DNA of 64,000 nucleotides from assembly GCF_009914755.1 (NCBI RefSeq), contig NC_060925.1, one strand, 5' to 3'. This stretch comes from the human T2T-CHM13v2.0 reference genome, Homo sapiens. Of the stretch, positions 7,218-19,000 are shown piece after piece (position 1 is the first letter of the stretch; every line of letters starts with the position of its first letter). Below the pieces are notes generated by a model, which worked only from the letters and a program-made list of their open reading frames with translations, ran no database searches and was not told where the DNA came from. The position numbers were made by a program, and so were the translations under genes.

Positions 7218-7749
7218 ATGGGCAAAGGCTCCTTCACATGCTCCGGGGTGCTGGACAAGCTAAAGGCAGGGTGGAAACACTGCTAATGAAGACATACCTG
7301 AGACTGGGTAATTTACAAAGGAAAGAGGTTTAATTGACTCACAGTTCAGCATGGCTGGGGAGGCCTTAGGAAACTTACAATCATGGCAGAAGGGGAAGCA
7401 AACATGTCCTTCTTCATGTGACGTCAGGAAGAAGAATGAGAGCCAAGTGAAGGGGGAAGCTCCTTAAAAAAACCATCAGATCTTGTGAGAACTTACTATC
7501 ATGATAATAGTATGAGGGAACTGCCCCCATGATTCAGTTACCTCCCACCATGTCCCTTCCACCACAGGTGGGGATTATGGGAATTACAGTTCAAGATGAG
7601 ATTTGGGTGGGGACACAGCCAAACCATATGAGTGGCATCCCATCAACATCTTTCTGTAGAAGTTCGGGACAAAGCAATACTATGTCACCATCATTGATGC
7701 CATGGGTCACTGTGACTTCATCAAGAACATGATCACAGTCACCTTACAG
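7218..7749 (+). pseudogene. eEF1A pseudogene exon equivalent to EEF1A1 exon 3 (M49-Q108), interrupted by an LTR
   Basis: ccag|ATG GGC AAA GGC TCC TTC...; 61+118 = 179 nt versus 180 expected; TAG at 7657-7659 replaces Trp; donor mutated to CT. Confidence 0.9.
7279..7631 (-). mobile_element. THE1/MST (ERVL-MaLR) solo LTR inserted in the eEF1A pseudogene exon
   Basis: actgctaatgaagacatacctgagactgggtaattt...gatgagatttgggtggggacacagccaaaccatat matches the THE1/MST LTR reverse strand; left terminus truncated. Confidence 0.88.
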
Positions 7750-7839
7750 CTACCACCAGGGTTGCCTCGGCCCTGCTGTGGGGATGGGCAGGGGGTGTCC
7801 CAGGCCAGGTCTGAGCTGGGCCTTCCTCTCTCTGGCCGG

Positions 7840-8136
7840 GAAGACTGTGCTGTGCTGATTGTGGCAAGTGGTGTAGGAGAGTGTGAGGCTGGCATCTCCA
7901 AGAACAAGCAGATCTGTGAGCACACACTGCTGGCCTATACACTGGGCATGAAGCAGCTCATTGTGACAGTCAACAAGATGGACATCACAGAGCCACCTTA
8001 CAGTAGTACATGCTTTGAGGAGATCAGCAAGGAGGTGAAGGCTTACATCAAGAAGATTAGTTACAACTCCCAGACTCTGCCCTTTGTGCCCATCTCAGGC
8101 TGGCATGGGGACAACATGCTGGAACCTGGCAGCAAG
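7840..8136 (+). pseudogene. eEF1A pseudogene exon equivalent to EEF1A1 exon 4 (A109-N207)
   Basis: Exactly 297 nt, frame open, [21 protein letters not shown]...NKMD...[13 protein letters not shown]; donor gtgagg intact, acceptor mutated (ccgg). Confidence 0.93.
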
Positions 8137-14569: not shown

Positions 14570-14802
14570 GTGATCATTCTCAACTACCTTGGCTGCACCA
14601 CAGCTGGCTACTCACCAGTTTTGTACTGCCACACAGCCCACATTGCCTGCATGTTTGCAGAGCAGCAAGTTTGCAAACCAGCGCTTGGGCAACAAAGTGG
14701 AAGACAACCCCAGAGCTTTGAAGTCTGGGGACTTGGTCATCGCCCAGATGATCCTGGGCAAGCCCATGTGCGTGGAAAGCTTCTCAGACTACCCGCCCCT
14801 CA
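14570..14802 (+). pseudogene. eEF1A pseudogene exon equivalent to EEF1A1 exon 7
   Basis: ctccag|[68 protein letters not shown]|gtaaga; 233 versus 235 nt. Confidence 0.92.
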
Positions 14803-16002
14803 GTAAGACCCAACAGCACCTGGCCACTGGGGCTGCCCCTTCCTCCTTCTGGGTCCAGGAAGCCAGTTGGCCACCTGAGCCAGGCAGTAGAACCTAGTCA
14901 CAAGGATCTGAGAGCCAGGTTAGAAGAGCCCACAGAGAGAAGGGGGCTTGCCTGGTATCACAGCAAGGTGGGGGCCACTCTAAAGCCTTGCTACTCAAAG
15001 TGTTGTTCATGGACATGCTTCACAGGCATGCTCTGGGAGTTAGATATGCAGAATCTGGCTGAGCGCAGTGGCTCATACCTGAAATCCTAGTGCTTTGGGA
15101 GGCTGAGGCAGGAGGATTGCTTGAGGCCAAGAGTTTGAGGCCAGCCTGAGCAAAATAGCGAGACCCCCATCTCTATAAAACATTTTAAAAATTGGCTGGG
15201 CATGGTGGTGCTTGGGGATACTGAGGTGGGGGGATGGCTTGGGCACAGGAGTTTGAGGCTGCAGTGAGCTATGATCACGCCACTGCACTCCAATCTTGGA
15301 GACACAGCAAGACCCTGTCTCAAAAAAAAAAAAAAAAAAAAGAAAAAGAAAAGAAAAGAAAAGAAAGATAAATAGAAGAATCTCATTCTCCATCTAGACC
15401 TGCTGAATTCAAATCTGCGTTTTAACAAGATCCCCCAGGTAAATGGACGTCACATCAATGTTTGAGAAACACTGCTCTAGAGAAGGTGAGTAGAGCAGAG
15501 ATGGGTAGGGAGGTTTTTCCCTTCCTGCTGTCTAGGACGGTGGCTTTCAAACCTGCTGGATTATCATAACCACTGATGAAGCCTTTTAAACCTAGAGGCT
15601 CACACCCTGATAGAGTTACCTGGTTAAGGCTGCAGCCTAGGAGTATGTTTCTTAGACTCTCCAGGTATCACTTGCATGGCTGGGCTTGAACTACATTCTG
15701 AACTCAAATATCTAGGGAGTAGGCTCTTTCACGTAGTGCTTCTGTGCCAGGTTCTGTGCTATATGTTAGACATTTGTGCCTGAGCAAGAAGAACAAGTCC
15801 CTCAGGTCTCCCAGTTAATGGGGAAAAGGGTGAATCTATAAAGGCTAATTTTAGAGCTGGGCTAAAGAGGCTGCCAACATAAATCTTGCAATGTTGGGTT
15901 AGGTCTTCCTACCCATACCAAAAATATTATGAGACACAAAGCCAGGAGCCGAAGCCTTTTCTCTGCAACATGAAGTCAGGGATGCCTTCAAGAACCCTCA
16001 AG

Positions 16003-19000
16003 GGCTGGGCGCGGTGGCTCACGCCTGTAATCCCAGCACTTTGGGAGGCTGAGGTGGGTGGATCTTCTGAAGTCAGGAGTTCAAGACCAGCCTGGCCAAC
16101 ATGATGAAACCCTGTCTCTACTAAAAATACAAAAATTAGCCAGGCATGGTGGCAGGCGCCTGTAATCCCAGCTACTGGGAAGGCTGAGGCAGGAGAATCA
16201 ATCGCTTGAACCCAGGAGGTGGAGGTTGCAGTGAGTTGAGATCGCGCCATTGCACTCCAGCCTGGGCAACAAGAGTGAAACTCCGTCTCCCAAAAACAAA
16301 AAACAAACAAACAAAAAACCTCAGGAGAAGCAACACCCAGGTTGCCAGTTGACTGTGAGAACCACCGCATGGGTTGTGATGGGCATGGGGGAATTGCTGG
16401 TTGCTTGGAGGCTGGGAGCATTCCTTTGCTAAGGTGACTGCACCAAAAGGAAAGCTTTCCCTGTGATCATTGCTGATGGCAGCAGGAGAGTTGGGCAGCT
16501 AAGAATATAAGCACTGGTGTGAGACTTCTAGTTTCTTTTTCTTTTTGTTTTTGAGACACAGTCTTGCTCTGTCACCCAGGCTGGAGTGCAATGGTGCAAT
16601 CTCAGCTCACTGCAACCTCCGCTTCCCGGGTTCAAGCGATTCTCCTGCCTCAGCCTCTCCAGTAGCTGGGATTACAGGCGCCAATCACCACGCCCAGCTA
16701 ATTTTTCTTTCTTTTTCTTTTTTTGTATTTTTAGTAGAAGCAGGGTTTCACCATGTTGGCTAGGCTGGTCTCAAACTCCCGACTTCAGGTGACCCACCCA
16801 CCTCAGCCTCCCAAAGTGCTGGGATTACAAGTGTGAGCCACCGCTCCCGGCCAACTTCTAGGTTTTTAACCATTGCAGCCAAGTGACCTTCAACTTCTCT
16901 GCCTCACTTTTCTCACCTGTAAAATGGGTACAAGAGATGTACTGTGAATTATTGGGAGAATGAACATGAGCTCATGTATATAACTCAAATGATCACTTTT
17001 TTGGCCCACTTGACCTCTTCTGCAAGTGTCCCATAGCTCCTGCTCTGAAAAGTATTCCCCCTATTTCTTCACGCCCTATGTCCTAGGTCATTTCTCTGTG
17101 TGACATGAAGCAGACAGTGGCTGTTGGGGCCATCAAGATTGGAGAAAAAAGCAGCTACTGGCAGCAAGGTCACCAAGGCAGCCAGGAAGGCAGCCAGGAA
17201 GTGAGTGGTAGAGCCTCACCTGGGAAGAGTGGCTCAAGGAGAAGCCTTGGACTTGTTCTCTTGCCTAAACTGTCTTTTCTTTTCTTTTTCTTTTTCTTTT
17301 TTCTTTTTTCTTTTTTTTTTGAGATGGAGTCTGGCTCTGTTGCCCAGGTTGGAGTGTAATGGCGCGATCTCAGCTCACTGCAAGCTCTGCCTCCTGGGTT
17401 CACGCCATTTTCCTGCCTCAGCCTCCCAAGTAGCTGGGACTACAGGCGCCCGCCACCACGCCCGGCTATTTTTTTTGTATTTTTAGTAGAGATGGGGTTT
17501 CACCGTGTTAGCCAGGATGGTCTCGATCTCCTGACCTTGTGATCCACCCAACTTGGCCTCCCAAAGTGCTGGGATTACAGGCGTGAGCCACCACGCCCGG
17601 CCCTGTCTTTTCTTTTTTGAGACAGAGTCTTGCTCTTCTCCCAGGCTGGAGTGCAATGATGCGATCTTGGCTCACTGCCACCTCCACTTCCCAAGTTCAA
17701 ACAATTCTCCTGCCTCAGCCTCCCCAGTAGCTGGGATTACAGGCTCCCAACACCACGCCTGGCTAATTTGAGTATTTTTCATAGAGACAGGGTTTCACCC
17801 TGTTGGCCAGGCTGGTCTCAAACTCCTGACCTCATCCGCCCGTCTTGGCCTTTCAAAGTGCTGAGATTACAGGTGTAAACCACTGCGCCCGGCTGTCTGA
17901 ACTATCTTAATCCTGATCCTGCTAATATGGTTTTCTCTCTGCTGATGAGCTTGAGGCGTTGGATAAAGCAAAGCAAGTCTTTTTGCCTCTGCCTCTACTG
18001 ACCTCTGTCTCAAGCAGTGAGGAGGCAGGTGGGTTACTGGGAGTCCAGATGCAAGAGCCAGACAGCTGGGCTTGTAAAGAAGAAAACGCATGGAGGGAAA
18101 ACTGAGGGGAAGGTCTGGGCCCTAGCCTGGTCTGTCGGCTTCTAAAATAGGACGGGACGCTGGTATTAGACTGCCTGATTTCATTACTGTCTTAAAAGTT
18201 ACTAGACCAGGAGTGGTGGTGCATGCCTATAATCCCAGCACTTTGGGAGGCCGAGGTGGGTGGATCACTTGAGCTCAGGAGTTCAAGACTAGCCTGGGCA
18301 GTATAGTGAGACCTCATCTCTACAAAAAATACAAAAAAATTGGCCAGGTGTGATGGTGCATACCTGTGGTCCCAGCTACTTGGGAGGTTGAGGTGGTAGG
18401 ATCACTTGAGCCCAGGAGGTCGAGGCTGCAGTGAGCTGAGATCGTGCCTCTGCACTCCAGCCTGGGCAACTGAGTGAAAAAAAGAAAAGAAAAAAAAAAA
18501 AAGGGCCAGGTGCAGTGGCGTATGCCTGTAATCCCAGCACTTTGGGAGGCTGAGGAGGGCAGATCACTTGAAGTCAGGAGTTTGAGACCATCCTAGCCAA
18601 CATGGCAAAACACCATCTCTACTAAAATACAAAAATTAGCTAGGCATGGTGGTGCATGCCTGTAGTCCCAGCTACTCAGGAGGCTGAGGCACAAGAATTG
18701 ATTGAACCCGGGAGGCAGAGGTTGCAGTGAGCTGAGATCACACCACTGCACTCCAACCTGGGTGACAGAGCAAGACTGTGTCTAAAAAAAGAAAAAAAAA
18801 AAAAGCTGGACACGGCTGGACACGGTGGCTCACACCTGTAATCCCAGCACTTTGGGAGTCTGAGGCGGGTAGATCACCTGAGGCCAGGAGTTCAAGACCA
18901 CCCTGGCCAACATGGCGAAACCCTGTCTCTACCAAAAATACAAAAATTAGCCAGACGTGGTGGCGGGCACCTGTAATCCCAGCTACTTGGGAGGCTGAGG

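What the first reader, a model, noticed from the sequence alone, without database searches (positions are those of the whole stretch)
7218..17204. Intron-containing eEF1A fossil next to RPL11: candidate lost third vertebrate eEF1A gene, not a retrocopy
Seen in sequence: six exon remnants over 10 kb with real introns. Boundaries and phases match the EEF1A1/EEF1A2 structure (|M49, Q108|A109, 207|M208, G|G phase 1, Q|V, L-G phase 1). Sizes are 179/297/150/226/233 nt versus 180/297/151/257/235 expected. Established: most human EEF1A1 pseudogenes are intronless retrocopies. EEF1A1 (6q13) and EEF1A2 (20q13.33) lie in the 1p/6q/8q/20q paralogon (COL9A1/2/3, KCNQ5/4/2, TCEA1/2/3). Inference: this is a unitary pseudogene of the 1p ohnolog, possibly orthologous to amphibian oocyte-type eef1a1o or fish eef1a1l1. 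It may still be intact upstream of RPL11 in other vertebrates, in which case an EEF1A1P-type name is misleading.
Basis: partly seen in the sequence, partly recalled or inferred. Interest (0 to 1): 0.88.

Follow-up and report, generated by a model that had tools for sequence, protein, structure and literature searches.

The report
Fossil of a lost eEF1A gene
Just upstream of human RPL11 lies the broken, intron-bearing remnant of an extra gene for the translation factor eEF1A whose closest relatives are full-length, well-conserved proteins in carnivores, pigs, elephants and manatees, so it is likely a gene that our lineage lost rather than a stray copy of EEF1A1, and likely one of two such losses.

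Summary
Observation confirmed: six exon remnants (exons 3-8) at 7218-17204 sit at the EEF1A1/EEF1A2 boundaries and phases, 8 of 11 splice sites are canonical, exon 2 was not found, and exon 3 is split by a high-copy repeat. The gene is dead (stop, seven frameshifts). It is neither a retrocopy nor a recent duplicate: the decoded protein is closest to intact 461-aa 'EF1-alpha-like' proteins of cats, seals, bear, pig, elephants and sirenians (72-74% against 69% for A1/A2; tree 100/99; grouping with A1 or A2 rejected, p about 0.02). Its introns match one of those genes, and fused gene models place this eEF1A type directly before RPL11 in bat and sheep. So it is a unitary pseudogene, likely lost 45-75 My ago. 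Ensembl already lists it as a 7-exon 'unprocessed' pseudogene; the orthology was not found in print. A second intron-bearing fossil on 11q14.3 matches a different intact clade (horse family, rhino, pig, deer), so 'third' is likely third of four. The 2R-ohnolog reading is plausible, but orthology to fish eef1a1l1 or frog eef1a1o is unresolved.

The parts
7176..7217 (+). 3' end of intron 2 with intact AG acceptor; homologous to the same intron end read through in P0057 and bear model P0046
7218..7274 (+). exon 3, 5' part (from M49, A1 numbering); may extend to 7277; K55 changed to T
7275..7631 (+). high-copy interspersed repeat (about 357 bp) inserted in exon 3, 5' edge uncertain; THE1/MST-type MaLR solo LTR by recall
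   Evidence: 8241 candidates, the 39 best other copies 85-88% identical; a related copy lies in intron 4
7632..7749 (+). exon 3, 3' part: 1-nt deletion near T72, TAG at W78 (7657), DAPG changed to DAMG, donor GT changed to CT
7750..7839 (+). intron 3 (90 nt); in frame it matches the 96-nt read-through intron of P0057 at 19 of 30 aligned positions; no homology to the A1 intron
7840..8136 (+). exon 4 (297 nt, frame open; NKMD and SGWH intact); acceptor AG changed to GG
13179..13328 (+). exon 5 (150 nt), frameshift near residue 242, donor GT changed to AT
13415..13640 (+). exon 6 (226 nt): 15-nt, 14-nt and 2-nt deletions; AG/GT intact
14570..14802 (+). exon 7 (233 nt), frameshift near residue 375; AG/GT intact
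17087..17204 (+). exon 8 coding part to TGA, two 2-nt deletions; C-terminus of the carnivore/afrotherian type; no AATAAA before 23984
28679..33735 (+). RPL11, synteny anchor: bat, sheep and pangolin gene models fuse eEF1A sequence directly onto RPL11
   Evidence: hub annotation

Best explanation
This is a dead, intron-bearing eEF1A gene, and it is likely a unitary pseudogene: the human remnant of a separate eEF1A gene ('S-type') that is still full-length before RPL11 in several other placental mammals and was likely inactivated in early primate evolution. Shown: exon-intron structure, lesions, closest relatives, intron homology, RPL11 adjacency of the same type in bat and sheep models, and low change at conserved columns in the intact proteins. 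Inferred: the intact protein would act as an ordinary GTP-dependent aminoacyl-tRNA carrier (all G motifs kept) but lacks the K165 methylation site and S300, so it would escape some regulation of A1/A2. It was likely redundant with EEF1A1, since it has also decayed independently in sheep, pangolin, megabat and probably colugo. The human copy lost constraint and then collected point changes, deletions, splice mutations and repeat insertions. About 0.08-0.10 neutral substitutions per site points to roughly 45-75 My, at or a little before the exon-3 repeat insertion. The gene predates placentals (platypus, turtle and monitor-lizard proteins group next to it) and is more likely than not (about 0.65) the 1p member of the 2R eEF1A quartet.
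For:: the best single-domain hits of exon 4 are intact mammalian 'EF1-alpha-like / somatic form-like' proteins (79-82%), against 77% for A2 and 75% for A1; over 394-395 columns, 72.4-74.4% to the 7 S-type rows compared against 69.1% to human A1 and A2; the fossil sits in the S clade at 100/99. AU rejects fossil+A1 (p 0.022), fossil+A2 (p 0.024) and S clade+tetrapod A1 (p 0.005); diagnostic residues S 17/31, A1 2/17, A2 1/17, O 1/20; intron 2 end and intron 3 match the S-type read-through record P0057. Window introns 3 and 5 show no homology to A1 and at most a marginal score to A2 intron 3 (4 of 100 shuffles as high); the intron 6 match to A2 is an Alu-like stretch; models fusing eEF1A to RPL11 in Pteropus (S 5/11, A1 1/10, A2 0/14, O 0/9) and sheep (S 3/4 and 3/5); 1.7-5.4% of 298 columns invariant in 33 other rows are changed in 12 intact S-type proteins, against 24.6% in the fossil. 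PMC9403048 (passages): 42Sp50 sits by MYC/FAM49B/ASAP1 and is lost in mammals, which fills the 8q slot of the paralogon.
Against: No genome other than human could be read: synteny rests on fused gene models, and those come from species where the gene looks degenerate, not from the species with intact proteins. The pangolin model is not diagnostic (S 0/4). The lynx model's N-terminal extension did not map to the human locus. The fossil is a long branch (0.86-0.96). S clade+A2 is not rejected (p 0.109). Deep nodes are weak. There is no expression or dN/dS evidence: the intact proteins are database predictions, and conservation was measured on protein only. The date rests on a simple simulation and recalled branch lengths.
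Confidence: 0.92

Rival explanations
1. Same unitary pseudogene, but the gene is an amniote- or mammal-specific duplicate (for example of the lineage that also gave the chr11 O-type gene, or an old A2-side copy) rather than a 2R ohnolog or an orthologue of fish eef1a1l1. This changes the origin, not the loss.
For: S, O, platypus, turtle and monitor rows form one group (90/87; 82/73), so at least one of S and O is a later duplicate or a translocated copy. S+A2 is not rejected. Teleost l1/l2-type rows can join A1 without rejection (p 0.378).
Against: In one search the amniote group joins teleost l1/l2-type proteins and a sawshark protein (82/81); the sawshark joins again (84/80). The RPL11-ELOA block is old (fused models in sturgeon and bichir). 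A Mab-21/cGAS-like domain is fused to RPL11 in Labeo (P0223), echoing CGAS beside EEF1A1 on 6q13 (human order recalled). Zebrafish eef1a1l1 lacks an assigned mammalian orthologue (PMC6997148).
Confidence: 0.33
2. An old intron-containing segmental duplicate of EEF1A1 or EEF1A2 that died on arrival (the meaning of Ensembl's 'unprocessed' class and of the 'EEF1A2 pseudogene' filing).
For: Exon boundaries are identical to A1/A2; DNA identity to A2 is up to 78%; the best human DNA paralogue of exons 5-6 is A2 (70%).
Against: AU rejection of both groupings; A1 2/17 and A2 1/17 diagnostics against S 17/31; no convincing intron homology to A1 or A2 but clear homology to an S-type record. The higher DNA identity to A2 likely reflects shared GC-rich codon use.
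Confidence: 0.04
3. A processed EEF1A1 retrocopy broken up by later insertions that mimic introns.
For: 25 of 27 other human loci scored are A1-type copies; EEF1A1P31 on X looks like a retrocopy split by about 10 kb (residues 1-101 contiguous).
Against: All five internal gaps fall at the A1/A2 intron positions, with 8 of 11 canonical splice dinucleotides (P about 4e-8).
Confidence: 0.005

Closest known systems
EEF1A1P48 / LOC729856 / ENSG00000229239 (the existing annotation)
   Same: Same locus: 468 nt in NCBI; 7 exons, 1186 nt, 'unprocessed pseudogene' in Ensembl (PMC9170609 supplement).
   Different: Filed as a copy of EEF1A1 (name) or EEF1A2 (that review). The evidence here says it is the orthologue of a separate gene and belongs in the unitary class.
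Mammalian 'elongation factor 1-alpha-like / somatic form-like' proteins (P0036-P0046, P0054 and other pig rows, P0133)
   Same: Same clade (100/99), 17 of 31 diagnostic residues, homologous introns, same C-terminal type.
   Different: They are full-length with all GTPase motifs; the human copy is dead. They carry only automatic names; no paper describing them was found in 10 searches.
EEF1A1 and EEF1A2
   Same: Same exon boundaries and phases; 69% protein identity to the fossil.
   Different: Separate clades. S-type proteins have A or T at 165, F167 and A300, where A1/A2 have K165, Y167 and S300.
Teleost eef1a1l1 / eef1a1l2-type genes (eEF1A4 in PMC9403048)
   Same: Also a non-A1, non-A2 lineage; said to lack a mammalian orthologue and to be the maternal and most abundant zebrafish form (PMC6997148, passages). 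The goldfish row shares A165/F167/A300. Weakly grouped with the amniote clade.
   Different: Grouping not reproduced and not required by AU tests; synteny in fish not tested; row labels as l1/l2 are my reading, not database names.
Xenopus eef1a1o (oocyte form) and 42Sp50
   Same: Extra vertebrate eEF1A genes absent from the textbook mammalian set.
   Different: The one frog oocyte-form row (Pelobates P0160) groups with sturgeon, not with the S clade (not rejected if forced, p 0.244). No Xenopus or 42Sp50 sequence was obtained; 42Sp50 maps to the MYC/ASAP1 block, not RPL11 (PMC9403048).
Human unitary pseudogenes such as GULO and UOX (recalled)
   Same: Intron-bearing, in the ancestral position, orthologue intact in other mammals, repeated independent losses.
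   Different: Here paralogues (A1, A2) still supply the core function, so no pathway is lost.

Membership tests
Unitary pseudogene | Disabled in this species | tested here: met
   TAG at W78, six frameshifts plus a 1-nt deletion near T72, three broken splice sites, repeat in exon 3, exon 2 not found
Unitary pseudogene | Keeps the exon-intron structure of a real gene | tested here: met
Unitary pseudogene | Intact orthologue in other species | tested here: met
   tree 100/99, diagnostics and intron homology; 'intact' means predicted full-length proteins
Unitary pseudogene | Conserved genomic position | tested here: met
   S-type eEF1A fused to RPL11 in Pteropus and sheep models; indirect, and not shown for the species with intact proteins
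Unitary pseudogene | No working copy of the same gene elsewhere in the genome | tested here: met
   0 of 27 other loci are S-type (the top 30 of 53 matches were fetched); whole-genome searches show only A1 and A2 as intact exon sets, but the search misses some loci
Processed pseudogene of EEF1A1 | No introns at the parent's positions | tested here: not met
Duplicated pseudogene of EEF1A1 or EEF1A2 | Nests with the parent and shares its introns | tested here: not met
2R ohnolog of EEF1A1 / EEF1A2 / 42Sp50 | Lineage separates from A1 and A2 before the jawed-vertebrate radiation | tested here: inconclusive
   sawshark row attaches weakly; alternatives not rejected
2R ohnolog of EEF1A1 / EEF1A2 / 42Sp50 | Lies in a paralogous block, with the same position in non-mammals | not testable with these tools
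   no vertebrate genomes other than human; hints only (PMC9403048, PMC5339811, P0223; ASAP3/TCEA3 on 1p36 recalled)
Orthologue of zebrafish eef1a1l1 or Xenopus eef1a1o | One clade plus shared synteny | tested here: inconclusive
   no named zebrafish or Xenopus sequence was obtained
Functional eEF1A (intact orthologues) | G1, DxxG, NKxD and G5 motifs intact; strong conservation | tested here: met
   (5 of 5 S-type rows shown; pig has L for H in G5)
Functional eEF1A (intact orthologues) | Expressed and active in elongation | not testable with these tools
   no RNA-seq or assay available

The most novel reading that the evidence does not exclude
The placental ancestor had four intron-bearing eEF1A genes, not two. 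Humans carry fossils of both extra genes (1p36.11 S-type, 11q14.3 O-type), which decayed to a similar degree and so may have died in the same period of early primate evolution, while pig keeps both, carnivores and afrotherians the S-type, and horses and deer the O-type. The 1p gene is the missing mammalian orthologue of the essential, maternal zebrafish eef1a1l1, so the housekeeping role passed from this ohnolog to EEF1A1 in tetrapods and left it to specialise and then be lost repeatedly.
Probability: 0.45. Interest if true: 0.8.

Novelty: new member of a known kind. Interest (0 to 1): 0.62.

Why it matters
Papers state that mammals have only two active eEF1A genes and that zebrafish eef1a1l1 has no mammalian orthologue (PMC6997148, PMC5339811, passages). 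Full-length, conserved extra eEF1A proteins in pig, horse, carnivores and elephants, with dated human fossils, would overturn that count for many mammals. They give a natural experiment on why paralogous elongation factors are kept: the extra forms lack K165, the METTL21B site (PMC5416902, passages), and S300. It also means EEF1A1P48 and LOC642791 are misattributed, and that eEF1A primers, antibodies and knockouts in pig, dog or horse may meet unrecognised paralogues. For human biology the locus itself is likely inert.

Tried and rejected
Exon 2 search by tblastn, local DNA alignment with shuffles and nhmmer over window 1-7217 plus 8 kb upstream: nothing; sequence further upstream was not read. 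No second tandem eEF1A remnant was seen in the window or those 8 kb. EEF1A1P43 ('EEF1A3', 17p11.2) was considered as another lost paralogue: three stretches at recalled positions were empty, and the stretch placed from the published coordinates holds only 25 C-terminal residues 100% identical to A1, so rejected. The idea that human 'EEF1A2 pseudogenes' are retrocopies of the lost gene was rejected: 25 of 27 loci carry mostly A1 residues, L018 was poorly covered, L028 is the intron-bearing O-type. The lynx N-terminal extension as a synteny probe gave no match. The intron 6 match to A2 is an Alu-like stretch, though a residual score of 30 remains after masking. Literature routes to fish synteny gave nothing. 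The PMC13280126 'eef1a1o' hit is an overexpression label. Seventeen rows were left out of the 33-row tree: the fossil and near-redundant rows. Fused tandem fish models were split into halves. The exon-3 join used (7218-7271 + 7630-7749) is a few bases off the final reading, which affects about 5 residues. No structure was predicted, since the fold is not in question. Earlier scan findings were not available.
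Full report
Observation. The window (chr1) holds six eEF1A exon remnants. Against the real EEF1A1 and EEF1A2 coding exons taken from this genome they map to 7218-7749, 7840-8136, 13179-13328, 13415-13640, 14570-14802 and 17087-17204, in order, on the + strand, at the same boundaries and phases. Eight of 11 splice dinucleotides are canonical (chance about 4e-8). 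Exon 2 was not found within 15 kb upstream. Lesions: TAG at W78, six frameshifts and a 15-nt in-frame deletion, a further 1-nt deletion near T72, three broken splice sites, and DAPG changed to DAMG. The gene cannot encode eEF1A.

What is already annotated. [quoted passage not shown] 'Has introns' is therefore known; its parentage is what is new.

Closest relatives. Searching with exon 4, the best single-domain hits were full-length proteins of about 461 aa named only 'EF1-alpha-like' or 'somatic form-like', from lynx, sea lion, fur seal, elephant seal, walrus, manatee, dugong, elephants, bear and pig (120 of 4304 hits listed). I call these S-type. The decoded fossil is 72.4-74.4% identical to the 7 S-type rows compared and 69.1% to human A1 and A2 (32 rows). 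In ML trees of 50 and 51 rows it falls in the S clade at 100/99. Forcing it with A1 or A2 is rejected (p-AU 0.022 and 0.024). It carries 17 of 31 S-diagnostic residues, against 2/17 A1, 1/17 A2 and 1/20 of the second clade. The fossil is a long branch, so independent support matters. The unnamed record P0057, whose coding part matches the pig S-type protein, reads through intron 3 and the end of intron 2, and these match the human introns (19 of 30 aligned positions in intron 3). Window introns 3 and 5 show no homology to A1, only a marginal score to A2 intron 3 (4 of 100 shuffles as high), and the strong intron 6 match to A2 is an Alu-like stretch.

Synteny. No other vertebrate genome was available, so I searched for over-long RPL11 gene models (120 of 122 hits listed). 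Four carry eEF1A domains in front of RPL11: Pteropus alecto, two sheep models and pangolin; a colugo model starts with the first residues of eEF1A. The bat and sheep pieces are S-type by diagnostics and identity; the pangolin piece is not diagnostic. These models show 12% (13/110), 30% (10/33, 12/38) and 25% (28/114) change at otherwise invariant columns, against 1.7-5.4% in 12 intact S-type proteins and 24.6% (61/248) in the human fossil. The inference is purifying selection in carnivores, pig and afrotherians, and repeated independent loss elsewhere.

Timing. A simple neutral simulation with CpG hypermutability puts the fossil's excess change at about 0.08-0.10 substitutions per non-CpG site. 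The exon-3 repeat differs from its nearest copies by 12-15%, or 0.06-0.08 per lineage. With recalled primate branch lengths this gives roughly 45-75 My, with death at or a little before the insertion; the insertion cannot be excluded as the killing lesion.

A second fossil. One search revealed another mammalian clade, 'oocyte form-like' in ass, rhinoceros, pig, deer and oryx (O-type, 100/99). One human locus scored as O-type (L028). Read in full (L039), G000:C11:92843394-92845455 holds exons 2-6 at A1/A2 boundaries with introns of 169, 475, 86 and 334 nt, plus an inverted 3' piece. It groups with the O clade at 100/99, has 7 of 11 O diagnostics and 21.4% decay. By position and length it is likely LOC642791, a 5-exon transcribed unprocessed pseudogene. 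Pig has both types. EEF1A1P43 ('EEF1A3') showed only an A1 fragment.

Deep origin. Platypus, two turtle and one monitor-lizard proteins group with S and O (90/87 without fossils; S plus these 91/75), so the lineage likely predates mammals. S clade+tetrapod A1 is rejected (p 0.005), S+A2 is not (p 0.109). Teleost l1/l2-type proteins join weakly (82/81) but not, and none of three deep alternatives is rejected. [quoted passage not shown] That ASAP3 and TCEA3 lie on 1p36, CGAS beside EEF1A1, and zebrafish rpl11 on chr19 is recall. I put the ohnolog reading at about 0.65 and eef1a1l1 orthology at about 0.55.

How it likely worked. The intact S-type proteins keep G1, DAPG, NKMD and G5 and K36, K55, K79, K385, but have A or T at 165, F167 and A300; afrotherians also have R318. 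K165 is the METTL21B target (PMC5416902, passages); other site roles are recalled. They would be ordinary elongation factors outside part of the A1/A2 regulatory code. Expression is unknown.

Novelty search. Ten full-text searches found no paper describing an intact extra mammalian eEF1A or this orthology; only PMC9170609 names the locus. Seen as passages: PMC6997148, PMC9170609 (plus supplement rows), PMC5339811, PMC9403048 (plus supplement search), PMC2270864, PMC13280126, PMC7072992 (plus supplement search) and PMC5416902. All others were seen only as search listings. Subscription papers, bioRxiv supplements and gene-loss screen tables were not seen and may already list the locus.

Verdict. 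A real unitary pseudogene of a distinct eEF1A gene that is intact in other mammals (0.92). It is a new member of a known kind, and surprising to eEF1A specialists because it breaks the two-gene count for mammals and comes with a second lost gene. Interest 0.62.

Noticed in passing
L039:2394-4455 and L039:1125-1291 (G000:C11:92843394-92845455): Second intron-bearing eEF1A fossil (exons 2-6 plus an inverted piece with an exon 5 end and the C-terminus), likely LOC642791; groups with intact 'oocyte form-like' proteins of ass, rhino, pig, deer and oryx.
   Followed up: yes
L023, L024, L029: Loci that by position are probably among those filed as 'EEF1A2 pseudogenes' in PMC9170609 (1p35.2, 3q25.1, 5q31.1) carry A1 residues (12/19 to 16/19) and no A2 residues; none of the 27 loci scored looks A2-derived.
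   Followed up: partly
L038:6052-6126: At the published position of EEF1A1P43 ('EEF1A3') only 25 C-terminal residues identical to EEF1A1 were found.
   Followed up: yes
G000:C23:153145330-153155510: EEF1A1P31-like locus: residues 1-101 contiguous, remainder about 10 kb away; looks like a retrocopy split by an insertion although listed as unprocessed.
   Followed up: no
window 11645-12015: Second copy of the same LTR-like repeat family, opposite strand, in intron 4.
   Followed up: partly
window 25001-30000: CpG-rich stretch (o/e 0.53-0.70; GC 0.68 at 25-26 kb) reaching about 3.5 kb upstream of RPL11 and overlapping masked repeats at 25006-26260.
   Followed up: no
P0215 (colugo RPL11 model): Begins with the first residues of eEF1A exon 2 and then appears frameshifted, suggesting the gene is broken in colugo too while exon 2 survives there.
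   Followed up: no
P0001, P0002, P0003: Fused double eEF1A models in Prochilodus, sturgeon and Danionella point to tandem pairs in fishes; turtles also give two related proteins (P0131, P0132). A tandem origin for the S and O types is possible.
   Followed up: partly
P0223 (Labeo rohita): Mab-21/cGAS-like domain fused in front of RPL11, a possible paralogon link to the CGAS-EEF1A1 block.
   Followed up: no
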